From positions 1 to 64,000 of the IMG/VR virus record IMGVR_UViG_3300037419_001472: a DNA stretch of 64,000 nucleotides. One strand, 5' to 3'. Origin of the DNA: a virus. Every line of letters starts with the position of its first letter. Positions within the stretch are counted from its first letter, which is position 1. Shown in pieces: positions 23,895-64,000 of the stretch. Both the position numbers and the translations under genes were made by a program. The notes beneath the pieces are model-generated. The model had not been told where the DNA came from. It worked only from the letters and a program-made list of their open reading frames with translations, and ran no database searches.

Positions 23895-24638
23895 GTGGCG
23901 AAGCCAGACAAGCCGGGTCAAGAGATTGCCTGGAAGGGGCCAGACTCGCTCCGGTCCTTCCTCGTGCCCATCGATGAGTTGCATGAGGACCCGGCCAACA
24001 CGAACGACCATGATGACGAGTCGATCCGCCGCATTGCCGCGGCTTATGCCGCCTACGGTCAGCAGCGGTTTGTCGTCGGCGATGCCAGCAAGGTCGTCCG
24101 GGCCGGGAATGGGCAACTCGCGGCGGCGCGGCGGCTAGGGTGGACGCACCTGGCGTACAACGTGTCAGACCTCACCGGCACGGCCCTGACCGGCTTCGCC
24201 ATCGCGGACAACCGCACGGCCGAGTTCAGCAGCCGCAATGAGGAGCGTTTGGCCGAGATGCTCGAGGCGATCGCGACTGACCCCGCGGCGACCCTGGAGG
24301 CGACCGGCTACGAGCGATCCGAGCTGGATGACCTGCTGGAGAGGATCGGGGCCAAGGCCGCCGGCGATGAGGCCTCAGCCGGCGTCGAGGTCGATGACCC
24401 GATGGCTGAATGGCAGGGGATGCCCGAGTGTGAGAATGAGGACCAGAGTCCGTTCCGCACCCTGCGTATCCATTTTCGTTCAGCCGAGGATGTCCAGGAC
24501 TTCGCAAAGCTGCTCGGCCAGAAAATCACGGATGGGATCAAGTTCCTCTGGCACCCGAGGGCCGAGGCAGCCAACTGGAGCGCGAACCCTTACGTCGATG
24601 CCATTGACGAGGATGAACTGGGCGGCGATGAACCCTAG
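23895..24638 (+). CDS. ParB-like N-terminal (nuclease/CTPase fold) domain protein
   Basis: LVPIDELHEDPANTNDH...IAAAYAAYGQQRFVVG...VRAGNGQLAAARRLGW fits the ParB/Srx fold. GTG start is uncertain (the track gives TTG at 23856). Confidence 0.7.
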   Translation: MAKPDKPGQEIAWKGPDSLRSFLVPIDELHEDPANTNDHDDESIRRIAAAYAAYGQQRFVVGDASKVVRAGNGQLAAARRLGWTHLAYNVSDLTGTALTGFAIADNRTAEFSSRNEERLAEMLEAIATDPAATLEATGYERSELDDLLERIGAKAAGDEASAGVEVDDPMAEWQGMPECENEDQSPFRTLRIHFRSAEDVQDFAKLLGQKITDGIKFLWHPRAEAANWSANPYVDAIDEDELGGDEP

Positions 24639-25488
24639 ATACCCGGTTTACGTGATCTCGAAGGGGCGAGCGGATAACCTCATCACGCCCCGCTACCTGG
24701 CCAAGATGTCCGTCCCCTTCAGCCTCGTTATCGAGCCTCAGGAACAGGGCGCGTATGCCAGGGCCATGGCTGGGGCTGGGATCGATCCCGGACACCTGCT
24801 GATCCTACCGTTCCGCAATCTCGGCCAGGGATCGATCCCGGCGCGCAACTGGGTCTGGGACCACGCCCTGGCCGGTGGCCACGCGCGGCACTGGATCCTG
24901 GACGACAACATCCAGGGCTTCTATCGCTACCACGGCAACATCAAGCGCCATGTCTGGACCGGGGCCATCTTCGCAGCGGCTGAGGACTTCACGGACCGCT
25001 ACCTGAACGTCCGGCTGTCCGGGTTCCAGTACGAGATGTTCGTCCCCCGGCGCAAGGCATGGCCGCCCTTCTACGTCAACACTCGCATCTACTCGTGCAT
25101 CCTGATCGACAATGCCTGCCGCCACCGCTGGCGGGGCCGGTACAACGAGGACACCGACCTGTCGATCCGCGTGCTCAAGGACGGGGACTGCACGATCCTG
25201 TTCAATGCCTTCCTGGCAAACAAAATCGCCACGATGACCTGCAAGGGCGGCAACACGGACGAACTGTACCGGCAGGATGACCAGTTTGATGGCCGTCTCG
25301 AGATGGCCCGATCACTCCAGCGCCAGCATCCTGACATCGTCAAGATCACCCGCAAGTGGGGCCGCTGGCAGCACCACGTCGATTACCGACCCTTCAAGGG
25401 CAACAAGCTGATCCGCCGGCCCGACCTGTCGATCCCCCAGGGGATCGACAACTACGGCATGGTCCTGGCCAGGCCCGACGATTCCTGA
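24628..25488 (+). CDS. GT-A-like glycosyltransferase candidate (possibly a DNA-base glycosyltransferase type)
   Basis: VYVISKGRADN...LVIEPQE...WILDDNI (DxD-like)...NEDTDLSIR. Overlaps the ParB gene by 11 nt. Confidence 0.45.
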   Translation: MNPRYPVYVISKGRADNLITPRYLAKMSVPFSLVIEPQEQGAYARAMAGAGIDPGHLLILPFRNLGQGSIPARNWVWDHALAGGHARHWILDDNIQGFYRYHGNIKRHVWTGAIFAAAEDFTDRYLNVRLSGFQYEMFVPRRKAWPPFYVNTRIYSCILIDNACRHRWRGRYNEDTDLSIRVLKDGDCTILFNAFLANKIATMTCKGGNTDELYRQDDQFDGRLEMARSLQRQHPDIVKITRKWGRWQHHVDYRPFKGNKLIRRPDLSIPQGIDNYGMVLARPDDS

Positions 25489-26783: not shown

Positions 26784-28358
26784 ATGGCAGCCGCGACGCT
26801 CGACCAGACGGATCCCCTGGCCGAGCCGGCGGCCCGCTTCGACCCTGACGCCGAGGTGGCCAAGTGCGCGGCGAACTGCGCCTACTTCATCAATGCCTAT
26901 GGAATTATTGATGATAGTCAGGGCCACGGCGAGAATGCCACCGGCACGATGCCGTTCCAGCTCTGGCCGGCCCAGGTCCGTCTGATCTGGGAGCTGATGG
27001 CGTTCCGCCTGCTCGTGCTGCTCAAGGCCCGCCAGCTCGGCATGAGCTGGGCCGTCTGTGGCTACGTGCTCTGGCGGTGCCTATTCCAGCGCGGGCAACT
27101 GATCTTTTTGCTCTCGAAGGGGCAGAAAGAGGCCAACGAGCTGCTGCGCCGGGTGAAGGCGATCTATCAGCGGCTGCCTCAATGGCTCCGCGACCGGCTG
27201 CCCCGGGTCGATCCGCGCAAGGACAATGCCAGCGAGATCCTCTGGACCAACGGGTCCTCGATCCAGTCGCTGCCCGCGACGCGCAACGCGGGCATCGGCA
27301 ACGCCGCGTCCGTCGTGGTGATGGATGAAGCCGCGCACATGAAGTATGGCGATGAGCTGTACCTCAACATCAAGCCGACGATCGACGCCGGCGGCCAGCT
27401 CATCCTGCTCTCGACGGCCAACGGGATCGGCGGCCTGTTCCACACGATCTGGGAGAAGGCGACCGAGGGGCTGAACGGTTTCCGGACCATCTTCATCCCC
27501 TGGTGGTGCCGGCCCGGCCGGGACCGCAAGTGGTTCCGGGCAAGGGTCGCGGAGTCCAACGACCCCAAGCTGATCCCGCAGAACTACCCGGCCAACCCGG
27601 TCGAGGCGTTCCTGGCCAGCGGCAACATGCGGTTCGATGCCGCATGGATCAATGCCCAGGCCCAGAACCTCCGCGAGCCGCTCGCGCCGGCCGAGTTGCC
27701 GCCCGCGCTGCGTGACATCCCTGGCCTCAAGGTCTGGACGCTGCCCCAGCCGGGGCGGTCCTACATCCTCGGCGGGGACGTGTCGGAGGGGCTGGAGACG
27801 GGCGACTATGATGCCTGCCCCGTGCTGGATGCCGAGACATGGGAACAGGTTGCCGAGATCCATGGGCACTGGGAGCCGGATGAGTACGCGGCCGCGCTCA
27901 TGAAGGTCGCGGACCACTACAACCACGCCTGGGTCGCCATCGAGCGGAACAACCACGGGCATGCGGTGCTGATCGCGTTCGCGCTGGCACGCGACCCGGA
28001 GACGGACGAGCCACGACCCTTCACGCGGGTCTACAACGGTGAGGATGGCCGCCCTGGCTTTTTGACCACGGCCAAGTCCAAGGGTCCGGGCGTGGACCTG
28101 ATCGCCGCGGCCCTGCGGGATGGCCTGGTGACGATCCGCTCGGTGGCGTTGCTGAATGAGCTGCGGCACTTCAAGCGGCTGCGCGGCGGCAAGCTGGGCG
28201 CGACCAAAGGCAAGCATGACGACCGCGTGATGGGTCTGCTGGTCGCTCTCTGCTCGCTGCGTCTCGGGCACCTGCGGCCATCTCAGGGCGCGCCGGCCGC
28301 CGGTGGCGGCGAGCGAAAGCCAACCTCGAAGTACCTGGGGCACCACCATGCCAGATGA
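26784..28358 (+). CDS. terminase large subunit
   Basis: KARQLGMSW ATPase motif, Walker B VVVMDEAAHM, and a C-terminal nuclease-like region. 524 aa. Confidence 0.85.
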   Translation: MAAATLDQTDPLAEPAARFDPDAEVAKCAANCAYFINAYGIIDDSQGHGENATGTMPFQLWPAQVRLIWELMAFRLLVLLKARQLGMSWAVCGYVLWRCLFQRGQLIFLLSKGQKEANELLRRVKAIYQRLPQWLRDRLPRVDPRKDNASEILWTNGSSIQSLPATRNAGIGNAASVVVMDEAAHMKYGDELYLNIKPTIDAGGQLILLSTANGIGGLFHTIWEKATEGLNGFRTIFIPWWCRPGRDRKWFRARVAESNDPKLIPQNYPANPVEAFLASGNMRFDAAWINAQAQNLREPLAPAELPPALRDIPGLKVWTLPQPGRSYILGGDVSEGLETGDYDACPVLDAETWEQVAEIHGHWEPDEYAAALMKVADHYNHAWVAIERNNHGHAVLIAFALARDPETDEPRPFTRVYNGEDGRPGFLTTAKSKGPGVDLIAAALRDGLVTIRSVALLNELRHFKRLRGGKLGATKGKHDDRVMGLLVALCSLRLGHLRPSQGAPAAGGGERKPTSKYLGHHHAR

Positions 28359-32186: not shown

Positions 32187-33290
32187 ATGCTGCTTTCTGA
32201 TGGACAAATTCTCGACTCGGTCAAGTTCAACGCATTGATCCTTGACCAGTACAGCCGCTACCAGCAGTCATTGCCGACGACCTTCCTCAACCGCACCGAG
32301 GAAGTGAACGCCGATGATGACGAGATCACGACCTACTTCACCGGCAAGGTGTTCGCCGCGGACATCATCGCCGACGACTCGAAGGCGGCCGTCTACGAGG
32401 CCGGCCAGCTCGAGTACGTGACCAACACGATCCCGAACCTGAAGGTCGGCCGCCGGTTCAGCCAGGGCATGATCGCCCGCCTCAACCGGATCCGCGCCAA
32501 CCTGACCTCGCCCGGCATCCGCGGCGAGGTCGACATGTTCACCAACTGGGAGACGACCACGGCGCGGGACCTGATCCGGGCGATTCAGGAACGCAAGAAC
32601 GCTCTGATCTGCGCCATGATGCTCGACTCGATCACCTATGATCGGCTCGGCATTAAGATCACCGGATCCTGGGGGATGCCGAGCGATCTCAAGAGCACGC
32701 CCTCGACGGCCTGGACCAGTACCACCGCCACGCCGATCACCGACATCCTGACCCTGAAATCGTACGCGCAGCAGACCTACGGCGAGACGTACGACAAGAT
32801 CACGATGACGACGCCCGACTTCATCAACATGGCGGCGACGACCGAGTTTAAGAATTTGTTGGCGGGTCTGGTCAACGCGCCGCTGGCCTCGACCGCCTGG
32901 AATGCCTACGACCCGCGGATGATCAAGCTCGCCAGCGAGCTGCTCCAGTGCGAGATCGAGCTGGAGAACAAGCTGATCTTTAGCCAGGGCGAGGACGGCA
33001 CCCAGTCGAATGCCCGCGTGCTGCCGCTGGGCAAGGTGCTGCTGTCGAACCGGGCCGACGAGAAGGACCCCACGGCCTACGACTTCGCGAACGCCCTGGT
33101 CATCGAGGCCCAGGTCGCGGGCCTGGTCGGCGACCCTGACAACGTGGCCGGCGGCCAGGTCTTCGGCCCGTTCGGCTACTTCACCGGCAACGCCGACTTG
33201 AATCCCCCCAATCTGACGGCGTGGGGCGTCGCCCGCGGCTTCCCCCGCAAGCATCGCAAGACCTGCACGGCCGTCCTGACTGTCCAGTAA
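32187..33290 (+). CDS. major capsid protein (lambda gpE-like family)
   Basis: 367 aa, correct position, and a C-terminal pattern resembling the Phage_cap_E family. Confidence 0.7.
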   Translation: MLLSDGQILDSVKFNALILDQYSRYQQSLPTTFLNRTEEVNADDDEITTYFTGKVFAADIIADDSKAAVYEAGQLEYVTNTIPNLKVGRRFSQGMIARLNRIRANLTSPGIRGEVDMFTNWETTTARDLIRAIQERKNALICAMMLDSITYDRLGIKITGSWGMPSDLKSTPSTAWTSTTATPITDILTLKSYAQQTYGETYDKITMTTPDFINMAATTEFKNLLAGLVNAPLASTAWNAYDPRMIKLASELLQCEIELENKLIFSQGEDGTQSNARVLPLGKVLLSNRADEKDPTAYDFANALVIEAQVAGLVGDPDNVAGGQVFGPFGYFTGNADLNPPNLTAWGVARGFPRKHRKTCTAVLTVQ

Positions 33291-44320: not shown

Positions 44321-46537
44321 ATGCCGATCAACGACCCGTACAAGTGGGACAACGTCGCGATCCCCCCGGCCCGCGCGGCGCTGCCGATCAAGGTGTTCCG
44401 CTACAACGGGCCGGGGTCCTACACGTACCTCCCCAATATCGTCTGCCTGACGACCGAGCAGCATGAGGGGCCAGACCCCGGTTCGGCCGTCTTCCGCTAC
44501 GTGATGGACCCGCGAGCTGGCGGCCCCTACGCGTTCGAGCAGGCGCTGTCCACCAGCTACACCGGCCCCTATGTGGTCGAGGTCGGGGACCGGCTCTGCG
44601 TCCAGGTGATGAAGCCGGATGGCTCGACAGAATGGTTCTTCGACGGCTACCCGCTCGGTTGGGGATCGGCCATCTCGGGCGACGCCGAGGGCGTGGCCCT
44701 ACATGCCGTGGGCGTGGCCAAGCGTGCGTTCGACACGACGATCCGCGGGGCCTACATGCGCAATGCCGATGCGCCGACGACGGTCTCGGACGTGCAGACC
44801 GACCTGATCGCCCGGTGCAACCCGCGGGGCAAGCCGAACGCGACGCCCAAGGACGCCGATGCGGGGGAATTCCCCTACCAGTACCCGACGTTTCTGGACC
44901 CGCTGCTGCCGACCGTGCCGCCGGCGACCGACCCGCCCCAGCGGCGCTGGACGCTGGCCATGATCGCCCGGTATCTCCTGTTCCGCGAGAACGCCGACCA
45001 GACCTACGTCAAGAACCCCGTGGGCGGGCAAATCGACAAGGTCCTGGTCTCGCGCGAGCCGATCACCGGCGTGCAACTCGACCCCAACGATGCCTCGACC
45101 TACACGGCCAAGGACATCGCGGCCCCCGACCCGCCCTTGACCGGCTCGCGCTGGCCGACCGCCATCCGACGGCTGACTGAGGACTATGGGTTCGGCATGG
45201 CCTGGAGGCTGACCACGACGGGCTCGGGCGACCCATCGACGGCCCTGGACCTCTTCTACAGCCAGGCCGGCGACGTGAAGTCCATCTACTTGGACGCACG
45301 CGGCTCGGCCTTCGACGCGGCGAAGAACAACATCGGCGCGGCCCAGATGGAGCGGGACATCTCAGGCGTCGTGAACAAGGTCATCACCGAGGGGGGCCTT
45401 GAGCGGTACCAGGCATCCTTCGTCCTCGACTGCGCGTTCCCGAGCAGCTCGAGCGACGCAGCCTCGGCTACCGCCCTGGCCGCCTTCAAGTCGAGTGACC
45501 CGGCCTTTACTACTAGTGATAACTTCAACAAGTATCGCAAGTTTATTTTTGATGAGACGGGCGAGGGGCACTATCACGCCGGGACCACGGCCAAGCTGAC
45601 GACCGTGCCGAGCCTGGACTCCCTGTTCGGCTCGGGGAAGTATGTCAAGCGTCGTCGCCAGCCCATCGGCGACCTGTTCAGCACCGATACCAACGGCAGG
45701 CCGCTGAAGTGGCGGCTGGACATCTCCACGGATTATGCCGGGACCGTGCCAGGTCTCTGGGACGGGACCGGGCACTGGCAGCACGTCGAGGGGGGCGCCG
45801 CGCTCCTGACCGACCAGATCGGCGTGCGGGTCAACGTCCAGGACCCGAACAAGTGGCACATCGGCAGCTCGACCGATACGAACGCGGCCTTTCCTGACGG
45901 CGTGGTCAAGGCCGTGCAGTGCATGGCGGCCCCGGACGCGCAGAATCCCAAGTTCTTTTTGATGTTGACCTGCGTCGTGGAGTCGGATCAGGTCGCCAGC
46001 TACACGGCCGAGCGGCAGGACTCCAGCCCGATCTCCTGGGAGATCGATGAGCGGGTTGATGCGCGGGATCGCCTGGCGACCAAAATCATCGCCGCCTACA
46101 CGCAGCCGGACAACAATGCCTCGACCACGAAGACCGTGCTCAACGATCAGGACTATCTGACGGCCGAGGCGATCTCGGTGCGGCAGAGCAAGGAAGCGGG
46201 TGTCTTCGAGGCTGAGGTCGAGATCCCCTACTTCACCCGGTACTACGAGATCGGCGATCGGATCGACCAAATCGAGGGCCGGAACCTGAATCTGCGAACC
46301 GACGGGGGCGGCTCGGGCGTGATGCCGGTTTACCCGATGGTCGTCTCAGTGCGGCACGACTTCTCGGACGGCCAGAAGACGTACCTGACGCTCAGCGACC
46401 GGGGTATGAACCACGCCCACGTCAAACGGCTGGGGACGCGCTCGAGCCGCTACACGCAGCCCATGCGGCGGCGGACGGCCCCGCTCGACCCCCGCGCGGG
46501 ATTCATCCAGAACCCCAATGGATCGAGGGAACTGTGA
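44321..46537 (+). CDS. large tail/baseplate hub-like protein
   Basis: 738 aa, upstream of the fibre-like genes. Confidence 0.5.
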   Translation: MPINDPYKWDNVAIPPARAALPIKVFRYNGPGSYTYLPNIVCLTTEQHEGPDPGSAVFRYVMDPRAGGPYAFEQALSTSYTGPYVVEVGDRLCVQVMKPDGSTEWFFDGYPLGWGSAISGDAEGVALHAVGVAKRAFDTTIRGAYMRNADAPTTVSDVQTDLIARCNPRGKPNATPKDADAGEFPYQYPTFLDPLLPTVPPATDPPQRRWTLAMIARYLLFRENADQTYVKNPVGGQIDKVLVSREPITGVQLDPNDASTYTAKDIAAPDPPLTGSRWPTAIRRLTEDYGFGMAWRLTTTGSGDPSTALDLFYSQAGDVKSIYLDARGSAFDAAKNNIGAAQMERDISGVVNKVITEGGLERYQASFVLDCAFPSSSSDAASATALAAFKSSDPAFTTSDNFNKYRKFIFDETGEGHYHAGTTAKLTTVPSLDSLFGSGKYVKRRRQPIGDLFSTDTNGRPLKWRLDISTDYAGTVPGLWDGTGHWQHVEGGAALLTDQIGVRVNVQDPNKWHIGSSTDTNAAFPDGVVKAVQCMAAPDAQNPKFFLMLTCVVESDQVASYTAERQDSSPISWEIDERVDARDRLATKIIAAYTQPDNNASTTKTVLNDQDYLTAEAISVRQSKEAGVFEAEVEIPYFTRYYEIGDRIDQIEGRNLNLRTDGGGSGVMPVYPMVVSVRHDFSDGQKTYLTLSDRGMNHAHVKRLGTRSSRYTQPMRRRTAPLDPRAGFIQNPNGSREL

Positions 46538-46866
46538 GCGACGGCTATTCCGAATATGAGCGGCTGCGCGACGACGACGACGGCCAGCGGGACGACATCT
46601 CGGGCTTCGATGGGAGCATTCCCCAGGCCGGCGTGACGTTCATTGCGAAGACGGCGACGAAGACGACCTATCCGACCGTGGCCGGGGCCTTTTTCTGGTG
46701 CACAATCCAGACCGTGACCGGGGCCGAGACCGAGGGCGGGGCGGCCACCTACACGAGCACTGGCAAGAGCGTCATGGCGTTCAACCTGGGCTCATCCGTG
46801 CCGCCCAGCGGGACACCCGTCATTATCGAATTTGTATCAGATCGTTATGTGTTTAGGTATCCATGA
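46534..46866 (+). CDS. small tail protein sharing a domain with the next gene
   Basis: GTGA overlap with the previous gene. FFWCTIQTVTGAETEGGAATYTS aligns with FLSWQPVVLTGSEMEGGASTSS of 46880-47968. Confidence 0.5.
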   Translation: MSDGYSEYERLRDDDDGQRDDISGFDGSIPQAGVTFIAKTATKTTYPTVAGAFFWCTIQTVTGAETEGGAATYTSTGKSVMAFNLGSSVPPSGTPVIIEFVSDRYVFRYP

Positions 46867-46879
46867 CGAGGCCGCGCCG

Positions 46880-47968
46880 ATGAGCCTGGACATCGCCCGG
46901 GACGACCGCAACAACCGCAAGCTGATCCTGCCCAGTTCCTCGCTCGATGGCGCGCCGCGCGTGCTCGGCAAGATCACGACGGCGAGCGGGACGATCGGGG
47001 TTGGTAAGTTCCTCTCCTGGCAGCCCGTCGTCCTGACCGGCTCCGAGATGGAGGGGGGCGCGTCGACCTCGAGCATCAATACCGCGGCGACGCGCAAGGG
47101 CGTGCTGGTCCAGGGGACAGCGTCCCAGAACGACGTTGCCGCGTTCGTCTTCGTCGACTATCGCTGGGTGACGCCGGGGCGGTCGGGCGGCTGCAATCCC
47201 GGTACAACATCGCTTACCTTCCACATTAAGGGCTGTCAGGGTACGGCTCTGTCTGGCGTCCCGGTCAGCGTGACGGAATCAGACGGCACCGTGATCAGCG
47301 GCAGCACCGATGCGTCCGGCACATTCGTTGCCGGGATCTTGGTGCCGGGGGCCTACACCTACACCTACGATCCAGGTCCGGGGCTGGGAGGGCCGGCGTC
47401 GGGTAGTGGCTCAATCTCATGCGGGCAAGCCCTCACCGTCAATGTCGACTATAGCCTAGGTCTGACAGGGAGTTGTTGCTGCAACAACAGGATTCTGCCC
47501 GCTACGCTCTATGCGACAACTTCCCAGGGCACGGTCGCTCTCAATGCCGGTTCAAGCTACACAAATAGCCAGAACTGGAACTACAACCCGGCCTACAAAG
47601 TTAACCCAAGCAATCAATGCTACCCAGATTGCTCTGGGACAGGCGCCTACACGATTCAAGTCGCCTACTCGCTTGGATGCCATGGAGCAACCCCCGGCTT
47701 GCTTGTTAACTGGGCCGCCGGAGAATGTCCGCCGAACGTCCCGCCGAATGGAACCGAGACTTGGTTGCCGGCGCAGGGGATTACCATCGGAGGGCCCTGT
47801 GGATTCCAACCTGCGGCAGATGTCGGCAAAGTAATCCCATTCCCCTTCGACCCGTGCACAGAGCCATTCCCCTGGACGTTCACTTTCCCGGCAACCTCGG
47901 ATGACATTACGGGCTTCGGGCAAACATCCCCATGCCCAGCCACTGGCACCATCGTGATTGCACCTTAA
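46880..47968 (+). CDS. receptor-binding / tail fibre-like protein with CarboxypepD_reg-like and Cys-rich C-terminal domains
   Basis: GVPVSVTESDGTVISGSTDASGTFVAGILVPGAYTYTY, 14 Cys in the C-terminal half, and visibly lower GC. Confidence 0.55.
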   Translation: MSLDIARDDRNNRKLILPSSSLDGAPRVLGKITTASGTIGVGKFLSWQPVVLTGSEMEGGASTSSINTAATRKGVLVQGTASQNDVAAFVFVDYRWVTPGRSGGCNPGTTSLTFHIKGCQGTALSGVPVSVTESDGTVISGSTDASGTFVAGILVPGAYTYTYDPGPGLGGPASGSGSISCGQALTVNVDYSLGLTGSCCCNNRILPATLYATTSQGTVALNAGSSYTNSQNWNYNPAYKVNPSNQCYPDCSGTGAYTIQVAYSLGCHGATPGLLVNWAAGECPPNVPPNGTETWLPAQGITIGGPCGFQPAADVGKVIPFPFDPCTEPFPWTFTFPATSDDITGFGQTSPCPATGTIVIAP

Positions 47969-47969
47969 T

Positions 47970-48398
47970 ATGATATTGCAACGATGCAACCATTGCCCCG
48001 TCGTCCCCGATCGGGAGTGCCTTGGGACCACTGCGGCGTTCGGCTACATGTGCGAATTCGCCCAGAGCGAGGATCCGGTCAAAGTCCGGCATGTCGTCGA
48101 GCGATCGGCGATCGGAGTAGATCCCCAACCGCCTGGGATGATCGCGCGGACGGCATCGCTCGCTGTCGCAGTCGTGGCGCACATCGCAACCGGCATGCAT
48201 CGCGTGGACGACGCAGTTAGGGACGCCCGGCTGGCGATTTGCCAGACGAACGAATGCGGCCACTACCGGACCGAGGAAGGGGCGCCGGCCTGCCTGGCAT
48301 GCGGGTGCGGACGGCGGGGCCTGGAGATCAAGGCCGGGTGGGCCGAGCAGCAGTGCCCGCTCGACCCACCGCGGTGGGGGCCGGTTGAGGTTACTTGA
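47970..48398 (+). CDS. Cys-rich small protein
   Basis: CNHCP...C and ICQTNECGHY...CLACGCG...CP motifs. Start uncertain (47970, 48048 or 48138). Confidence 0.35.
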   Translation: MILQRCNHCPVVPDRECLGTTAAFGYMCEFAQSEDPVKVRHVVERSAIGVDPQPPGMIARTASLAVAVVAHIATGMHRVDDAVRDARLAICQTNECGHYRTEEGAPACLACGCGRRGLEIKAGWAEQQCPLDPPRWGPVEVT

Positions 48399-49968
48399 CC
48401 TCGCGCTGGCCCAGGTGGGCCTTGTAGAACGGCTGATTGACGTCGGTCGTGTTGAAGCCCTCGCTCGGCTGGGGCGAAACGCCCTGGACCGTGTCGAGCG
48501 TGCTGGTCACGACCATGCCGCTCCGGGCGAAAAGCGTCACGAGCCGACGGTCATTTTTGAGCACCGGCGCCGGCGAAGCCGTGGCCGGCGGATAATTCCC
48601 GGGCCCCGGAGTGGTGCCCGCCATCGCGTCGGCGTCCAGCGGCAGCTCGTAGTAAGTCACGCTCGCCGTGTTTGCCGGGTTCGGGTTCGGGACTCCCGCA
48701 GTGGTCCCCCAGACGGCTCCGCGCGCGTAGACGTCCTCGCGGGCCGCGAGCCAGAAGTCCAGGAACGGAATGGGGTTCATCGATGTCGCCGACGAGTACA
48801 TCGTCGTGGGCACGTAACTGCCGTTCGGATTGAGCATCACGTCAACCGAAAGCGATCCAGGGTCGACCGGCAAGCGCGACCGTTCCTGGAGTTTGTTCCA
48901 GGATGTCGCGTCGATCACCACGCCGGCCGGCAGGAGGATCTCACGTCCACCGGGCGTGGGCACAGGCCGTCGTTCGATTGAGTAGGCGGAATCCCAAAAG
49001 TGAGACTTACCGTTGCCGTTGGCCCATGCTGGCGAAGGGCTGAACGCTGAGGGAGCAGAGTCGCGGAGATTCCCAACGTTGAGTCCCACCCAGTCCTCGC
49101 GCTCCGTCCACTCCAGGGCGTCGTCTACGACCCCATCAGCGTTCTGGTCGTATCCATCCCATCCCTGGTCGACATAGCCGTCGTGGTCGTCGTCCTCTCC
49201 GTTGACCAAAAACAGAAACTCGGGCGTCGGCGGATTGGGGATCGGATTGCCAGCGGAGTCGTAGTAGGTCCGGACCAGAGGCGATGGTGTGCCAGGAGGG
49301 CCGACATTGACGAACCACTCGAGATTGCCCTGGTTGATTGCCAGAGGTGCCTTCGGATTGATCGTGCAAGGGCCAACGACCGTGTAAGCGCGGCCCGTGT
49401 CGCCGAACTTGATCTTGTCGCCCACCCTCACATTCCACCACCAGTTGACCGGCTCGTTGGGAATGGCGCCCGGTGTGATGAATCCGCCCACAAAGGGGGA
49501 CTCTTCGATCATGAGCACGTTTGCTGGCGTGCTGGAGTCGGGAAACGGATAGGTCGCGCCGTTGGTGATCGGATGGGCCGGAGGAAAGGTGGCCGTCGCC
49601 CCTCCAGGAGGTAGCTGGGGGCCGACACTGAACTTGCCGGCGGTATAGTCGGCGGCTGGCTCAATCGGGATCAGTCGGTTGTAGGCAAGCTGAAGCGTGC
49701 CGGCACCGACCGTGCCGACCGCCGGAAGCGTGAGCATAGGGTCGGGCATGAGCCGCAGGCCACGCGGCTCATTCTGGCGGATGGCCGCGTCCCTCGCCCC
49801 CGCAATCGCCCCCGTCAAGACCTGAGCCGCGTCGGTTATGCTTCGCCCTGTCAGTGAGTCGCGGATCAGGGGCAGCGCGATAAGCGACGCAATCAGGATG
49901 ATCGCGAGAACCACCAAGATCTCAACGAGCGTAAACCCTGGGCGGCGGTGACGTGATCGGCGGAACAT
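48391..49968 (-). CDS. prepilin-type N-terminal cleavage/methylation domain protein, large minor-(pseudo)pilin-like
   Basis: RRPG/FTLVEILVVLAIILIASLIAL prepilin signal. 525 aa. Acidic Ca-binding-like NGEDDDHDGYVDQGWDGYDQNADGVVDD. Confidence 0.8.
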   Translation of the reverse strand: MFRRSRHRRPGFTLVEILVVLAIILIASLIALPLIRDSLTGRSITDAAQVLTGAIAGARDAAIRQNEPRGLRLMPDPMLTLPAVGTVGAGTLQLAYNRLIPIEPAADYTAGKFSVGPQLPPGGATATFPPAHPITNGATYPFPDSSTPANVLMIEESPFVGGFITPGAIPNEPVNWWWNVRVGDKIKFGDTGRAYTVVGPCTINPKAPLAINQGNLEWFVNVGPPGTPSPLVRTYYDSAGNPIPNPPTPEFLFLVNGEDDDHDGYVDQGWDGYDQNADGVVDDALEWTEREDWVGLNVGNLRDSAPSAFSPSPAWANGNGKSHFWDSAYSIERRPVPTPGGREILLPAGVVIDATSWNKLQERSRLPVDPGSLSVDVMLNPNGSYVPTTMYSSATSMNPIPFLDFWLAAREDVYARGAVWGTTAGVPNPNPANTASVTYYELPLDADAMAGTTPGPGNYPPATASPAPVLKNDRRLVTLFARSGMVVTSTLDTVQGVSPQPSEGFNTTDVNQPFYKAHLGQREVK

Positions 49969-50191
49969 ATCTCACACTCCCCTTACCGTAGGGCGGCCAG
50001 CCGAAACGACGGGCGAAGTATTTGCGCATCGCGTCACGGCCGTCTTGGTGAAAGATTGTCAGGGTTAGGGGGAGCGGCCGGCGCGGAAACTGTCGGCGAT
50101 ATGCCGCGGCGAAGGCCCCCCAAACAACAGCGGTCCCCAAAATCGACAGCAGAATGATCGCTTGCCAGTCGATCCCCTTCTGCTCGCGCAT
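49922..50191 (-). CDS. small TM protein upstream of the pilin-like gene
   Basis: TM segment AIILLSILGTAVVWGAFAAA. Overlaps the pilin start by 47 nt. Confidence 0.35.
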   Translation of the reverse strand: MREQKGIDWQAIILLSILGTAVVWGAFAAAYRRQFPRRPLPLTLTIFHQDGRDAMRKYFARRFGWPPYGKGSVRYVPPITSPPPRVYAR

Positions 50192-50458
50192 TGAAGCCGC
50201 CTGTAAAGAACAAGCCCCCATCCGGGCTCTAACCTCCGGACGGGGGCATCAAATCGGGATGCGGTCCCGGCTCGGTCTGTAGCATGGCCAGAGCACACCA
50301 TTGACGTAACGATAGCCTCACATGGACGCTAAATCAAGCAGTCTCGCCTTCTCCGTCCTCGCGGGCCTGACGTTCAAATGATGAAGGAACTCTAGAACCT
50401 GATTCCATAACAGTCGATCCCCGACCATTGATGTCACCTCAAACGGCCGCGCCTTCTC

Positions 50459-50502
50459 AAAAAAAGTCCTGCATGCGGGCCGTGACGCACCGCATGCAGG
50501 AC
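50459..50502 (-). terminator. Rho-independent terminator (13-bp stem GTCCTGCATGCGG/CCGCATGCAGGAC plus T7 on minus strand)
   Basis: Perfect inverted repeat 50466-50478 / 50490-50502, with an A7 run at 50459-50465 on the plus strand. Confidence 0.8.
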
Positions 50503-50914: not shown

Positions 50915-51082
50915 ATGGAGCACGTCCGGTTCAAGCACCAGCTCCCTGGGGGCGAGGTGCTTGAAAGCGACGTGATCGTGACCACGCCCGAGCTCTGGCC
51001 AGAGCTACCCCAGTCCCGATCCGGGAACTGGCAATCGATCATCGCCGGTCCGCTCATGATCGCGCACCGGGCCCTGGCCTGA
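50915..51082 (+). CDS. small hypothetical protein (55 aa), stand-alone transcription unit
   Basis: Very high GC3 in this frame. Followed by a strong terminator. Confidence 0.45.
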   Translation: MEHVRFKHQLPGGEVLESDVIVTTPELWPELPQSRSGNWQSIIAGPLMIAHRALA

Positions 51083-51116
51083 TCCGGATCTGACGTTGAG
51101 CCTCAGCCCCCTCTCA

Positions 51117-51148
51117 CCCCGCGCGACACACCCGCGCGGGGTTTTTTT
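51117..51148 (+). terminator. Rho-independent terminator (CCCCGCGCG-N7-CGCGCGGGG plus T7)
   Basis: Directly visible stem and T-run. Confidence 0.85.
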
Positions 51149-51182: not shown

Positions 51183-51656
51183 TCAATGCCTGCCGCCCTT
51201 GTCCTTGCCGGCATGGTTCCGGGCCGAGGCCTCGGGCATCCGCCGGCCCGGCATCCGGATCGGCTGGCCGACCGGGGGCAGCTCCTGCGGGGCTGAGGCG
51301 GGCTGAGCCGGGGGAGGAACCAGGGGAGCGCCCAGGAGTCGGCGCAGCGATTCATCTGGCCCCAGGCGGCGGATCGCCTCCCAGCACAACTGTTCCTCGG
51401 GCGGCAACCCCTGGGCTAGCTTCGGGGTCTGGACCCCGGCAATCTCGTCCGGGTCATCGACCCGAGGGTCGCAGAGATACTCAACCGGCACGCCCAGGAA
51501 GCGAGCCATGTTAAGTAGATCCTCGGGTGAGGGGTGGCCTGTCCCCTGGACCCACTTCGAGATCCTCGACTGCGCCTTGTGAATGAAGGTGGCCAGGTCA
51601 TTCTGACTCTTGTTCAACTCACCGAGCCGTCTGGTGATCTTTTCACCTAACGTCAT
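51183..51656 (-). CDS. CI-like XRE-family repressor
   Basis: HTH segment LGEKITRRLGELNKSQNDLATFIHKAQSRISKWVQGTGHPSPEDLLNMARFLGV. Divergent from a cro-like gene. Start at internal ATG 51656. Confidence 0.7.
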   Translation of the reverse strand: MTLGEKITRRLGELNKSQNDLATFIHKAQSRISKWVQGTGHPSPEDLLNMARFLGVPVEYLCDPRVDDPDEIAGVQTPKLAQGLPPEEQLCWEAIRRLGPDESLRRLLGAPLVPPPAQPASAPQELPPVGQPIRMPGRRMPEASARNHAGKDKGGRH

Positions 51657-51769: not shown

Positions 51770-51832
51770 TCGGGATTGAAACCGGAATTTCAGCGGGCTA
51801 GAATGATCTACGTTCGGGATTGAAAACGGAAT
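51770..51832 (+). promoter_or_regulatory. switch region: two direct repeats TCGGGATTGAAA(A)C(C/G)GAAT and promoter TTGAAA-17-TAGAAT (51776-51804)
   Basis: The repeats begin at 51770 and 51814. The first contains the -35 of a good sigma70-like promoter facing the cro-like gene. Confidence 0.6.
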
Positions 51833-62458: not shown

Positions 62459-64000
62459 ATGAGCATCGCCGACACCAACCGGCCCGCGGCGACCGCGACG
62501 GCCCCCGCCCGGGGGCTGACGATCCAACCCTATTTCTGCCCGCCGGACTGCAACCCCTACGCTCGGATCGGCTGGCGCACCGTGACGGCCCAGATCAAGG
62601 GGGATGACGGCCGGTTGATCTTCGAGCAGCCCAGCGTCGAGGTTCCCGAGGACTGGTCCGACCGGGCCGCCAACATCGTCGCCAGCAAGTATTTTTATGG
62701 CGACCTGTCGAAGGGATTCGACCCCACCCAGGGAGGGCGCGAGCATTCCGTGAGTCAACTCATCGGCCGGGTCTGCAACACGATCGCACACTGGGGCAAA
62801 GTGGATGGATACTTCGCCACGGCCGCGGATGCAGTCCAGTACCGGGAGGAGTTGGCGGCGCTGTGCCTCGGCCAGTATGGCGCATTCAACTCGCCGGTCT
62901 GGTTCAATGTCGGCCTGAGCCAGGAATACCACCTCAAGGGAGCAGCGAATAACTGGCGCTGGCATAAGGGGGAGGGACGGGCGGTCCCGTGCCTGGATGC
63001 CTACGAGTACCCCCAGGGCTCGGCCTGTTTCATCCAGAGCGTCGCGGATGACATGGGATCGATCATGGATCTGGCCCGTTCCGAGGCCATGCTGTTCAAG
63101 TATGGCTCGGGCACCGGGACTGACCTGTCGACGCTCCGCAGCACCAAGGAAAAGCTCCAGGGGGGTGGCAAGCCGAGCGGCCCGGTCAGCTTCATGCGGG
63201 TCTACGATGCGATTGCCGGCGTCGTCAAGTCGGGCGGGAAGTGCCTCGCCCCGGACCAGCCGATCCTGACCGATCGGGGAGTGAAGCCGGTCGGCGACCT
63301 GGCCGACCTCGAAGGCGGGTTCGTCGTGCTGTCCTACTCGCGCCGGCTCGGCCGGGTCGCGGCGAAGCGGGCGCATGCCTGGTGTTCCGGGGTCAAGCCG
63401 GTCATCTCCGTCATCACGGACAAGGGCGAATTCCGGGTTTCTCACGATCACCCGATGATGCTGAAGGATGGCATCTGGAAGCGGGCCGCCGACCTGAAGC
63501 CCGGCATGAGCCTGATGCAGGTCAGCACGGATCGCCACAAGGATGGCTATGTCCGCGTCGGACTCCAGGACGGCATGAAGGGGAAGGCCCTGTTCCATCA
63601 GCTCGTTGCCAAGGACATCCTCCGCTGGGATCTCCAGGGCAAGATCGTCCATCACGAGAACAAGGACAAGGGCGACAACCGGCCGGAAAACCTGCGGCTG
63701 AAGACCCAGGCCGAGCATGCCGCCGATCACGGGCGAGGCCGGGCGTTCTACACCGATGGGCATCCTGGCGAGCGGAACGGTATGCATGCCTCATCCGCGT
63801 TCTGGTCGGACTCCGAGCGGTCCAGCGAGTACCGCCTCAAGCAATCCGCGGTCCTGAAGCGGCGCAACCCAGCCATGCTCCAGAAGGCAGCAGTCCGCAA
63901 GCGGATGCTCAACCTCGGATATTCGCTCATCAACGCGGGGCATGACCTCTCGACGTTCGCCGGTTACGTCCTCGCCCGCAAGGCCGAGGGCCGACGCTGC
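62459..64000 (+). CDS. nrdJ: class II (B12-dependent) ribonucleotide reductase NrdJ, interrupted by an intein; partial (runs off window)
   Basis: Self-translated because the frame is open to the window end and absent from the track. Motifs: VEVPEDWSDRAANIVASKYF, NSPVWFNVG, GSACFIQSV, FKYGSGTGTDLSTLRS, GGGKPSGPVSFMRVYDAIAGVVKSGGK, then Cys. Confidence 0.85.
   Translation, partial: MSIADTNRPAATATAPARGLTIQPYFCPPDCNPYARIGWRTVTAQIKGDDGRLIFEQPSVEVPEDWSDRAANIVASKYFYGDLSKGFDPTQGGREHSVSQLIGRVCNTIAHWGKVDGYFATAADAVQYREELAALCLGQYGAFNSPVWFNVGLSQEYHLKGAANNWRWHKGEGRAVPCLDAYEYPQGSACFIQSVADDMGSIMDLARSEAMLFKYGSGTGTDLSTLRSTKEKLQGGGKPSGPVSFMRVYDAIAGVVKSGGKCLAPDQPILTDRGVKPVGDLADLEGGFVVLSYSRRLGRVAAKRAHAWCSGVKPVISVITDKGEFRVSHDHPMMLKDGIWKRAADLKPGMSLMQVSTDRHKDGYVRVGLQDGMKGKALFHQLVAKDILRWDLQGKIVHHENKDKGDNRPENLRLKTQAEHAADHGRGRAFYTDGHPGERNGMHASSAFWSDSERSSEYRLKQSAVLKRRNPAMLQKAAVRKRMLNLGYSLINAGHDLSTFAGYVLARKAEGRRC
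63242..64000 (+). mobile_element. intein with HNH homing-endonuclease domain inserted after KSGGK of NrdJ (C-terminal end beyond window)
   Basis: Block A CLAPDQPILTDRG, block B-like FRVSHDHPMML, and HNH motif IVHHENKDKGDNRPENLRLKTQAEH. The expected extein continuation TRR.. is absent at the junction. Confidence 0.8.

What the first reader, a model, noticed from the sequence alone, without database searches (positions are those of the whole stretch)
48391..50191. Phage-borne 525-aa prepilin-type protein with calcium-binding-like acidic loops, in antisense orientation at the end of the tail module
Seen:
- canonical prepilin leader and methylation site (..RRPG-FTLVEILVVLAIILIASLIAL);
- a very large globular part;
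- two Dx(D/N)xDG-like loops (DDDHDGYVD, DQNADGVVDD);
- a small TM ORF upstream;
- the gene converges on the tail genes and is flanked by terminators and a low-GC spacer.

Established: minor (pseudo)pilins such as GspK cap type II/type IV filaments.

Inference: lysogenic-conversion or exclusion cargo that remodels or blocks host pili (a likely phage receptor), or hijacks the host pilus or T2SS machinery.
Basis: partly seen in the sequence, partly recalled or inferred. Interest (0 to 1): 0.65.

Follow-up and report, generated by a model that had tools for sequence, protein, structure and literature searches.

The report
Phage copy of host pilus-tip pilin
A virus of planctomycete bacteria carries its own full-length copy of one small-subunit ("minor pilin") gene of its host's type IV pilus, placed next to its tail genes. 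It most likely uses this copy to re-surface the pilus so that rival viruses cannot land, a trick shown experimentally so far only in Pseudomonas phages.

Summary
The ORF is real: 48391-49968(-), 525 aa, with a canonical prepilin leader (RRPG|FTLVE) that scores above the Pfam and TIGRFAM cut-offs.

**Phage setting.** Tail genes lie on one side. A cI-like repressor, Rad52 and DnaB lie on the other. The identical arrangement occurs on at least 10 metagenomic contigs.

**What the protein is.** It is not GspK/PilX/PilY-like. It is a 53-58% identical copy of a gene conserved in about 50 Isosphaeraceae pilus operons: PilB-PilT-PilB-PilC, major pilin, this family, then PilV-like, PilW-like and a giant Glu5-less subunit. 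That is the GspH/FimU position.

**Recurrence.** Homologous copies sit next to distal tail genes in about 12 other viral contigs and prophages. One is in the Singulisphaera sp. PoT chromosome and two lie next to integrases. Four of these phages, this one included, share a small transmembrane gene that overlaps the pilin start.

**Sequence state.** The phage copies keep all family-invariant residues and give dN/dS of about 0.27.

**Best reading (about 0.5).** This is receptor mimicry for superinfection exclusion, as shown for P-FimU of Pseudomonas F10-like prophages (PMC12952977). Expression, incorporation into the pilus and exclusion are untested. No integrase was found in the window.

**Verdict.** A new variant of a known kind, of moderate interest.

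The parts
48391..49968 (-). Phage-borne prepilin-type minor pilin, 525 aa. It is the GspH/FimU-position family of Isosphaeraceae type IV pilus operons.
   Evidence: ORF. N_methyl and TIGR02532 score above their cut-offs; the best longer N-terminal match is GspH, TIGR01708, at 36 bits and below cut-off. 468 homologues were found, the named ones from Singulisphaera/Isosphaeraceae. Host operon context.
49936..49968 (-). Class III signal peptide (MFRRSRHRRPG), with predicted prepilin-peptidase cleavage before Phe12. Glu16 is Glu+5 of the mature pilin.
   Evidence: Sequence; Pfam N_methyl matches residues 7-32.
49168..49194 (-). Acidic loop 1, DDDHDGYVD (residues 259-267), fitting DxDxDGxxD. It is conserved across the family and is a putative Ca2+ site.
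   Evidence: Alignment A1: D259, D260 and G264 invariant; N256, G257 and D267 at least 90% conserved. The motif is present in 33 of 36 members. Metal binding is inferred only.
49123..49149 (-). Acidic loop 2, DQNADGVVD (residues 274-282), fitting DxNxDGxxD. It lies in a variable, insertion-prone segment.
   Evidence: The motif is present in 9 of 36 members. Singulisphaera host copies carry insertions here.
49922..50191 (-). Small single-pass transmembrane protein gene (89 aa). It overlaps the pilin start by 47 nt and is the probable first gene of a two-gene TM-pilin unit.
   Evidence: Called on the metagenomic contig. 70-75% identical in L008 and P0122. Related TM ORFs overlap the pilin start in L006 and L007. 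Absent from host operons.
50309..50337 (-). Candidate sigma-70-like promoter TTGATT-17 nt-TATCGT for the TM-pilin unit. It is weak, matching 8 of 12 positions.
   Evidence: Read from the sequence. It falls below the scan threshold. L008 has a comparable TTGCCT-N17/18-TACACT element after its own terminator. Inference only.
50458..50502 (-). Intrinsic terminator (about a 15-bp stem followed by U7). It insulates the TM-pilin unit from upstream minus-strand transcription, i.e. from the repressor side.
   Evidence: RNA fold -34.6 kcal/mol, z -5.3, 0 of 200 shuffles as good. An analogous hairpin plus T8 lies upstream in L008.
48048..48398 (+). Cys-rich (zinc-ribbon-like) 116-aa protein, the last gene of the tail-strand operon. 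Its stop overlaps the pilin stop by 8 nt.
   Evidence: Gene call. phrog_13558, function unknown. Homologues abut the pilin in L006 (39% identical, the same 8-nt overlap), L008 (50%), L013 and L016.
46847..47968 (+). Distal tail protein (373 aa) with a CarboxypepD_reg-like beta-sandwich domain; a candidate receptor-binding protein.
   Evidence: Pfam match at 23 bits, below cut-off. Homologues lie next to the pilin in L008 (37%) and L007 (30%). The receptor-binding role is inferred from position.
44321..46537 (+). Large tail protein (738 aa).
   Evidence: Gene call. A 34% homologue occurs in viral contig L014, which also carries a pilin.
51183..51656 (-). cI/DicA/RstR-like HTH repressor, on the same strand as the pilin.
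   Evidence: Pfam HTH_3, 5.9e-12. NCBIfam DicA and RstR matches, below cut-off. PHROG repressor families.
51770..51832 (.). Two 19-nt direct repeats, TCGGGATTGAAA[C/A]CGGAAT, in the divergent repressor/early-gene intergenic region; probable operators.
   Evidence: Repeat family D3. They overlap the promoter-like site at 51776-51804.

Best explanation
**Proposed mechanism.** The gene is a phage-carried, functional copy of the host's GspH/FimU-position minor pilin of the Isosphaeraceae type IV pilus.
1. It is made as a prepilin, inserted in the inner membrane and cleaved by the host prepilin peptidase.
2. It is then built into the host pilus at the junction between the tip (priming) complex and the major-pilin shaft, beside or instead of the host subunit.
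3. Its variable surface segments differ from the host's, so the pilus keeps working but no longer offers the surface that pilus-tip-binding phages recognise. These are probably this phage and its relatives.
4. The infected or lysogenised cell is thereby protected from superinfection.

This is the P-FimU mechanism of Pseudomonas F10-like prophages.

**Shown here:** prepilin nature; orthology to the host operon gene; phage location; recurrence next to tail genes in unrelated phages; purifying selection; a separate, terminator-insulated transcription unit.

**Inferred:** expression, incorporation into the pilus, that the pilus tip is the receptor, and exclusion.
For: **It is a prepilin.** Canonical prepilin signal, scoring above curated cut-offs.

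**It matches a host operon gene.**
- In about 50 Isosphaeraceae genome loci the homologue sits in a fixed operon: PilB, PilT, PilB, PilC, a GspG-like pilin, this family, a PilV-like 476-aa protein, a 666-aa prepilin and a Glu5-less giant of about 2200 aa.
- The best N-terminal matches are GspH and Verru_Chthon cassette protein D.
- The weak top Foldseek hits are FimU, EpsH and XcpH.

**It is in a phage.** Both flanks are phage DNA, and the arrangement is identical on at least 10 contigs.

**It recurs beside tail genes.**
- Homologous pilins lie against distal tail genes, with no PilB or PilC nearby, in L006, L007, L008, L010, L013, L014, L016, L023 and L074.
- The same holds in the Singulisphaera sp. 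PoT chromosome, L019.
- L009 and L014 have an integrase within about 1 kb of the pilin.

**The copies are host-matched.** In the tree, phage copies group with the operon copies of particular host clades. The window copy groups with Singulisphaera.

**The copies look functional.**
- They are full length and keep all invariant residues.
- They vary in the same segments as the host copies.
- dN/dS is about 0.27.

**The adjacent tail protein diverges faster.** It is 37% identical between the window and L008, against 57-63% for the pilin. This matches the P-FimU/PTP4 pattern.

**Precedent.** Prophage FimU is incorporated at the pilus tip, keeps twitching motility and blocks tip-binding phages. Its gene lies inside the tail cluster (PMC12952977).
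Against: - There are no expression data.
- No integrase was found in the 64-kb window, so lysogeny of this phage is unproven.
- The receptor of these phages is unknown.
- The globular domain has no significant structural or sequence match to FimU or GspH. The 'H position' therefore rests on gene order and a sub-threshold N-terminal match.
- Phage-host divergence (54-64% identity) is only slightly greater than host-host divergence (62-68%). No phage-specific surface loops stand out as they do in P-FimU.
- The conserved small TM partner has no counterpart in the P-FimU system. It could be the real effector.
Confidence: 0.5

Rival explanations
1. Poison subunit. The phage pilin, alone or with the small TM protein, acts as a dominant negative. 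It jams the priming complex or the platform, so pili are no longer assembled or retracted, and all pilus-dependent phages are excluded at the price of losing pilus function.
For: Over-expression of FimU alone disrupts pilus assembly in P. aeruginosa (PMC12952977). Phage proteins that shut down T4P are known: Aqs1 and Zip (abstracts) and Tip (from my own knowledge). A phage-specific TM partner is co-encoded, and it is absent from host operons.
Against: The phage copy is full length and keeps every residue that is invariant in the host family. It is under purifying selection along its whole length. A poison would not need the intact 460-aa globular part. The P-FimU precedent is functional replacement.
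Confidence: 0.15
2. Lysogenic conversion for the host's benefit. The variant minor pilin changes adhesion, surface specificity, DNA uptake or motility of the lysogen. FimT/FimU-type subunits can carry such functions. Phage exclusion is not the selected trait.
For: NCBI names some members 'pilus assembly FimT family protein'. FimT is a DNA receptor of competence pili in other bacteria (my own knowledge). Hosts themselves often carry a second [major pilin + H-like] pair after the operon, which suggests alternative pilus types. The gene sits in a moron-like position next to the immunity region, or next to integrases in L009 and L014.
Against: The tight, recurrent linkage to distal tail and receptor-binding-type genes in otherwise unrelated phages is better explained by phage-versus-phage selection. 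No adhesin or enzymatic domain was detected.
Confidence: 0.17
3. The phage uses the pilin for its own cycle. It might keep pili extended or retracted to steer adsorption of progeny away from infected cells and debris, or exploit the pilus/T2SS-like machinery for release.
For: Virulent phages also carry PilA-like genes, as noted in PMC12952977. This phage shows no integrase in the window and has a large replication and nucleotide-metabolism module.
Against: No secretin, ATPase or other machinery genes are carried, and the window holds only one prepilin ORF. The gene is on the strand opposite to all late genes and is insulated by its own terminator. Mechanistically this overlaps with exclusion.
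Confidence: 0.08
4. Non-functional passenger or assembly artefact: a piece of host pilus operon picked up or mis-joined, with no role.
For: The gene is clearly of host origin, 53-58% identical to Singulisphaera operon copies.
Against: The locus is identical on at least 10 independent contigs. The ORF is intact, with dN/dS of about 0.27. Independent copies sit at the same kind of position in about 12 other phages or prophages. Only this one gene of the operon is ever carried.
Confidence: 0.03

Closest known systems
P-FimU of Pseudomonas aeruginosa F10-like prophages (Sztanko et al., Cell Rep 2026; PMC12952977)
   Same: It is a phage-encoded copy of the host T4P minor pilin that links the tip complex to the shaft (the FimU/GspH position). 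The gene is embedded in or abutting the tail gene cluster. The copies are diverse among phages, and a neighbouring tail-tip protein is even more variable. The copy appears full length and functional rather than truncated.
   Different: The host phylum is different (Planctomycetota, Isosphaeraceae). The protein is 525 aa, against roughly 140 aa for the crystallised FimU chains, and its globular part has no detectable similarity to FimU. It is much closer to the host copy: 53-58% identity against 28%. It lies on the opposite strand from the tail genes, with its own terminator. A conserved small TM gene overlaps its start and a Cys-rich gene abuts its 3' end. Function is untested, and lysogeny of this phage is unproven. 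The authors found P-FimU homologues only in P. aeruginosa.
GspH / FimU / FimT minor (pseudo)pilins (TIGR01708; PDB 4ipu, 2qv8, XcpH in 9a1f)
   Same: Prepilin leader with Glu+5. In host operons the gene follows the major pilin and precedes the I/V-, J/W- and K/X-like subunits. The best, sub-threshold profile match of residues 11-75 is GspH. The top weak Foldseek hits are FimU, EpsH and XcpH.
   Different: It scores 36 bits against an 80-bit cut-off. Foldseek gives E 0.47 or worse and TM 0.37 or lower. The protein is 3-4 times larger, with a family-specific beta-rich body and DxDxDG loops.
Verru_Chthon cassette proteins A-D (TIGR02596/8/9, TIGR02600) of Verrucomicrobia
   Same: This is a PVC-superphylum set of prepilin-type proteins. 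The host copy's best N-terminal match is cassette protein D, and the next gene matches cassette protein B/PilV.
   Different: All matches are below the curated cut-offs and cover only the N-terminal 60-65 residues.
Phage T4P inhibitors Tip, Aqs1 and Zip, and P-PilA of Xylella prophages
   Same: They are phage genes that alter T4P, a common phage receptor, to exclude competitors (for Aqs1, Zip and P-PilA; Tip from my own knowledge).
   Different: Tip, Aqs1 and Zip are small cytoplasmic or membrane inhibitors of PilB/PilZ, not pilins. P-PilA copies the major pilin, not a minor one.
PilY1 / integrin-type DxDxDGxxD calcium loops
   Same: Loop 1 (DDDHDGYVD) and loop 2 (DQNADGVVD) fit the 9-residue EF-hand-like motif. 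That motif controls pilus dynamics in PilY1 (my own knowledge).
   Different: There is no homology to PilY1. Metal binding is not tested. The AF2 confidence in the loops is only 61-79.

Membership tests
Type IV pilin / prepilin (class III signal peptide) superfamily | Short basic leader ending in Gly, Phe/Met at +1, Glu at +5, and a hydrophobic stretch of about 20 residues. Scores above the Pfam N_methyl and TIGR02532 cut-offs. | tested here: met
   RRPG|FTLVEILVVLAIILIASLIAL. PF07963 scores 30.1 bits (cut-off 21.2) and TIGR02532 scores 28.1 (cut-off 16.3).
Type IV pilin / prepilin (class III signal peptide) superfamily | Lollipop architecture: an alpha-1 helix of about 50 residues followed by a beta-rich globular domain. 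| tested here: met
   The AF2 model has helix 14-65 followed by 14 beta strands (interspersed with four short helices); pLDDT 79.4, pTM 0.74.
Type IV pilin / prepilin (class III signal peptide) superfamily | Cleavage and N-methylation by a prepilin peptidase, and assembly into a filament. | not testable with these tools
   Needs biochemistry.
GspH / FimU / FimT minor pilins | Profile match above the curated cut-off (TIGR01708). | tested here: not met
   36 bits against 80, covering residues 11-75 only. The host copy scores 31.5 bits.
GspH / FimU / FimT minor pilins | Globular fold superposable on FimU, EpsH or XcpH. | tested here: inconclusive
   These are the top pilin hits, but they are not significant: E 0.47-2.4, TM 0.37 or lower. 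The PDB profile search matches only the N-terminal helix.
GspH / FimU / FimT minor pilins | Gene position after the major (pseudo)pilin and before the I/V-, J/W- and K/X-type subunits. | tested here: met
   This holds for the host orthologues in about 50 loci. The phage copy itself is solitary.
   The query has Glu+5 (E16). In the host operon the Glu5-less protein of about 2200 aa is a different gene.
P-FimU-type phage receptor mimic | Encoded by a phage or prophage, and a homologue of the host's own minor pilin. | tested here: met
   Phage flanks. 53-58% identity to Singulisphaera operon copies.
P-FimU-type phage receptor mimic | Gene located within or next to the tail/tail-tip gene cluster. 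| tested here: met
   This holds in the window and in L006, L007, L008, L010, L016, L019, L023 and L074.
P-FimU-type phage receptor mimic | Expressed from the prophage, incorporated at the pilus tip, and blocks adsorption of tip-binding phages while keeping pilus function. | not testable with these tools
   Experimental. Only an insulated transcription unit on the repressor strand is seen.
P-FimU-type phage receptor mimic | Sequence homology to P-FimU or FimU. | tested here: not met
   tblastn found no hit in 50,697 GenBank phage records, a collection expected to include JBD68- and F10-type phages though this was not checked. There is no PDB FimU match beyond chance. The resemblance is analogy, not family membership.
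EF-hand-like DxDxDGxxD calcium loop | The 9-residue motif with acidic or amide side chains at positions 1, 3, 5 and 9 and Gly at position 6. | tested here: met
   Present at residues 259-267 and 274-282. Loop 1 occurs in 33 of 36 relatives. Ca2+ binding itself is not testable here.
Phage moron (independent transcription unit) | Own promoter and terminator; variable presence among related phages. | tested here: inconclusive
   There is a strong terminator upstream, only a weak candidate promoter, and no 3' terminator. Close relatives lacking the gene could not be retrieved.

The most novel reading that the evidence does not exclude
The unit is a mobile, multi-gene 'receptor-mimicry cassette': a small TM protein, then the H-position minor pilin, then a convergent Cys-rich protein. 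It travels together with the receptor-binding tail gene between unrelated planctomycete phages. The phage-specific TM partner would actively favour the phage pilin over the host subunit at the assembly platform, or displace the host subunit. That would be a mechanism beyond the passive competition described for P-FimU. It would also identify the type IV pilus tip as a major phage receptor in Planctomycetota.
Probability: 0.2. Interest if true: 0.72.

Novelty: new variant of a known kind. Interest (0 to 1): 0.55.

Why it matters
Phage-encoded replacement of a receptor subunit was described only recently, and only for Pseudomonas FimU. Its authors found no homologues outside P. aeruginosa.

This case would show three things:
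- The same strategy arose independently in phages of a distant, poorly studied phylum.
- It uses a non-homologous giant minor pilin.
- It did so repeatedly, as several host-matched acquisitions.

It also gives practical leads. It points to the type IV pilus tip as a likely phage receptor in Isosphaeraceae. It offers a first handle on the function of a conserved but uncharacterised planctomycete pilus operon. It flags a conserved small membrane partner whose role is unknown.

Tried and rejected
- **Fold search.** Foldseek of the AF2 model against PDB and BFVD gave no significant match. The fold of the globular part therefore stays unassigned.
- **PDB profile search.** It matched only the N-terminal helix.
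- **GenBank phages.** tblastn of the pilin against 50,697 records found nothing.
- **Related phages via the 776-aa tail protein.** A scan of IMG/VR found nothing, so the presence/absence (moron) test among close relatives could not be done.
- **Exact-sequence look-up of the methylase**, meant to extend the contig leftwards: not on record. The ThyX look-up only re-found window DNA plus the RNR gene.
- **Integrase and lysogeny markers.** None turned up in about 45 window ORFs scanned with Pfam, NCBIfam and PHROGs.
- **Rfam scan of 47-52.5 kb.** Nothing above noise.
- **Homologue searches for the two neighbours.** The TM protein gave 2 clusters and the Cys-rich protein gave 4. That is too few to say more.
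- **Invertible promoter switch.** I considered this because of the 16-nt inverted repeat at 50154-50169 / 51027-51042. The one other contig spanning the segment (L001) is 100% identical and shows no inversion.
- **GspK/PilX/PilY reading.** Rejected, because Glu+5 is present and the operon position differs.
- **Host-DNA flank.** Rejected.
Full report
**Observation**

The ORF 48391-49968(-) encodes 525 aa starting MFRRSRHRRPG|FTLVEILVVLAIILIASLIAL.
- It passes the curated cut-offs of Pfam N_methyl (30.1 against 21.2 bits) and TIGR02532 (28.1 against 16.3).
- It is the only prepilin-type ORF in the window.
- An AlphaFold2 model built on 36 homologues (pLDDT 79.4, pTM 0.74) shows the pilin 'lollipop': a 52-residue helix (14-65) followed by a beta-rich body.
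- The two acidic loops exist. DDDHDGYVD (259-267) and DQNADGVVD (274-282) both fit DxDxDGxxD. Loop 1 is a family hallmark, found in 33 of 36 relatives with D259, D260 and G264 invariant. Loop 2 is kept in 9 of 36 and lies in an insertion-prone segment.
- The upstream small TM ORF (49922-50191, 89 aa) is a real, conserved gene that overlaps the pilin start by 47 nt.
- The 50-51 kb spacer is the GC minimum of the window, at 0.59.

'Flanked by terminators' is only half true. A strong hairpin plus U7 lies upstream of the TM-pilin unit (50502-50466, -34.6 kcal/mol, z -5.3), and another lies at 51116-51142. At the 3' end the pilin stop overlaps the stop of a convergent Cys-rich gene by 8 nt, so there is no room for a terminator.

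**Is it phage-borne?**

Yes. The window reads as one phage genome.
- Structural genes: TerL 26784-28358, portal, major capsid protein 32187-33290, and a tail module running to 48398.
- On the other side of the pilin: a cI/DicA-like HTH repressor (51183-51656, -), Rad52, a DnaD-like loader, DnaB, DUF5131, RusA, ThyX and a class II RNR with an intein.
- On the left: a methylase, an SNF2 helicase, the Pol III beta clamp and DUF932.
- The identical pilin is on 11 metagenomic contigs, 9 of them 50-200 kb and the longest 78 kb, with the same neighbours. L001 is 100% identical over 21.6 kb.
- TerL is at most 34% identical to any GenBank phage, so this is an undescribed phage lineage.
- No integrase was found in the 64 kb examined, so temperance of this phage is not established. 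Two 19-nt direct repeats in the divergent repressor/early-gene region look like operators.

**What the protein is**

There are 468 homologues in the word-indexed search. A full scan of 1.84 billion cluster representatives found 233 at E of 1e-30 or better. The named members are Singulisphaera/Isosphaeraceae 'prepilin-type' or 'pilus assembly FimT family' proteins.

In Singulisphaera sp. Ch08, GP187, S. acidiphila and about 45 further Isosphaeraceae genomes and MAGs, the homologue occupies one fixed slot in a conserved operon:
1. PilB, PilT, a second PilB and PilC.
2. A 388-aa pilin with a GspG-like N-terminus.
3. This family, about 545 aa.
4. A 476-aa protein (GITLTE...; PilV / cassette-B-like).
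5. A 666-aa protein (GVTLVE...).
6. A protein of about 2200 aa whose leader lacks Glu5, the hallmark of GspK/PilX.

The query keeps Glu+5, and its best longer N-terminal profile match is GspH (TIGR01708). For the host copy the best matches are GspH and Verru_Chthon cassette protein D. All are below cut-off. Foldseek finds nothing significant, and the best pilin hits are FimU, EpsH and XcpH (E 0.47 or worse).

I therefore call it the GspH/FimU-position minor pilin of a planctomycete T4aP-like system.

**Recurrence in phages**

This is the most informative result.
- A profile scan of IMG/VR found nine viral contigs with relatives and no PilB, PilC or other operon genes nearby.
- Context look-ups of two of the closest proteins, P0015 and P0005, also gave phage contexts.
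- In L006, L008, L010, L016, L023 and L074, and in the chromosome of the isolate Singulisphaera sp. PoT (L019), the pilin converges on, or is embedded in, a block of shared structural genes. These include Phage_tube_2, a head-tail adaptor and tape-measure-sized proteins.
- L009 and L014 have a tyrosine integrase within about 1 kb of the pilin.
- The Cys-rich gene (phrog_13558) abuts the pilin 3' end in the window, L006 (with the same 8-nt overlap), L008, L013 and L016.
- A small single-pass TM gene overlaps the pilin start in the window, L008, L006 and L007, with a shared DW[QH]..I motif. Unrelated small TM ORFs sit there in L009, L010 and L015. Host operons have none.
- L008 shares with the window only the four-gene block of TM, pilin, Cys-rich gene and the 373-aa tail protein. 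The module is therefore mosaic.

**Evolution**

- In an NJ tree the window pilin groups with phage copies L008, L006 and L007 and with the Singulisphaera operon copies. Other phage copies sit beside other host clades. This indicates several host-matched acquisitions or long co-diversification.
- Identities: host to host 62-68%, phage to host 54-64%, phage to phage 55-63%. The same segments vary in all comparisons: 121-150, 271-330 and 421-510.
- The machinery genes, by contrast, are 95-99% identical among the same hosts.
- Phage copies keep all invariant residues.
- They give dN/dS of about 0.27, against about 0.13 for hosts. dS is near saturation, so these values are rough.
- The neighbouring 373-aa tail protein diverges faster than the pilin: 37% against 57-63% between the window and L008.

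**Mechanism**

The closest known system is P-FimU of P. aeruginosa F10-like prophages (PMC12952977).
- It is a prophage copy of the minor pilin FimU, encoded within the tail cluster.
- It is expressed at host-like levels and incorporated at the pilus tip.
- It supports twitching motility yet blocks adsorption of tip-binding phages.
- A variable tail-tip protein determines sensitivity.
- The authors found homologues only in P. aeruginosa, plus PilA-like genes in Xylella prophages and some virulent phages.

The present gene matches every genomic criterion of that system. It is phage-borne, it copies the host subunit at the same position, it lies next to tail-tip genes, it looks functional rather than crippled, and it is diverse among phages. 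I therefore favour receptor mimicry for superinfection exclusion, at about 0.5.

The rivals are:
- a dominant-negative block of piliation (0.15);
- conversion of host adhesion or DNA uptake (0.17);
- a role in the phage's own cycle (0.08);
- a non-functional passenger (0.03).

Expression, processing, incorporation and exclusion are all inferred. The small TM partner has no counterpart in P-FimU and might be essential to the mechanism.

**Novelty and score**

The kind of system is known. This is an independent, non-homologous instance in another phylum, with extra conserved parts, and it is seen repeatedly. I rate it a new variant of a known kind, with interest 0.55.

Noticed in passing
window 49922-50191 (-); L008 9775-10038; L006 8178-8549; L007 2048-2401: A small single-pass TM protein gene overlaps the start of the phage pilin by 38-68 nt in four phages, with a shared DW[QH]..I...LG motif followed by (T)IF..GR...Y. 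It is more conserved than the pilin between the window and L008, and it is absent from host pilus operons. Its function is unknown.
   Followed up: partly
window 48048-48398 (+); L006 10163-10564; L008 11637-12026; L013; L016: A Cys-rich, zinc-ribbon-like protein (phrog_13558, function unknown) always abuts the pilin tail-to-tail. The 8-nt stop-codon overlap is identical in two phages whose pilins are only about 55% identical. This suggests a co-inherited convergent pair or antisense coupling.
   Followed up: partly
window 51770-51788 and 51814-51832: Two 19-nt direct repeats, TCGGGATTGAAA[C/A]CGGAAT, lie between the divergent HTH repressor and a 117-aa early gene. They overlap a promoter-like site and are probably operators of an immunity switch.
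   Followed up: no
window 50154-50169 and 51027-51042: A 16-nt inverted repeat (94% complementary) spans 857 nt that include the putative TM-pilin promoter. One arm encodes DWQAII in the TM gene, and the other encodes NWQSII in a 55-aa plus-strand ORF (50915-51082). No inversion was seen in the one other contig that spans the segment (L001).
   Followed up: partly
window 62459-64000 (continues in L085 9526-12702): A class II (B12-dependent) ribonucleotide reductase is interrupted by an intein with an HNH endonuclease, next to ThyX, RusA, ASCH and DUF4326 genes.
   Followed up: no
L030, L032, L040, L044, L052, L059, L067 (Isosphaeraceae genomes): Many host genomes carry a second [major-pilin-like + H-position pilin] pair directly after the giant Glu5-less gene of the pilus operon. 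This looks like an alternative shaft/adaptor cassette. Among Singulisphaera species the major and minor pilins are only about 52-75% identical, while PilB, PilT and PilC are 95-99% identical.
   Followed up: partly
L019 (Singulisphaera sp. PoT NZ_CP186274, 1738443-1759957): A prophage-like tail block (tape-measure-sized protein, an 1116-aa protein, a glycosyltransferase) converges on a pilin of this family. Upstream lie two further N_methyl proteins (about 575 aa each) and then host-like genes (AhpC/thioredoxin, LRR). The pilin probably sits at a prophage edge in a cultured isolate, which makes this a usable experimental system.
   Followed up: partly
L009 7201-8262 (-) and L014 12274-13290 (+): Tyrosine integrases lie within about 0.3-1 kb of the phage pilin in two other viral contigs. 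This is the classical position for a lysogenic-conversion gene.
   Followed up: partly
window 7475-7570 (-): ARAGORN calls a 96-nt 'tRNA-Asp' with anticodon ATC. The length and anticodon are atypical, so it may be spurious or an intron-containing or degenerate tRNA.
   Followed up: no
window 24238-25488 (+): A 416-aa protein matches PHROG 842, beta-glucosyl-HMC-alpha-glucosyltransferase (1e-33). Together with the ThyX and RNR genes this hints at DNA base hypermodification in this phage.
   Followed up: no
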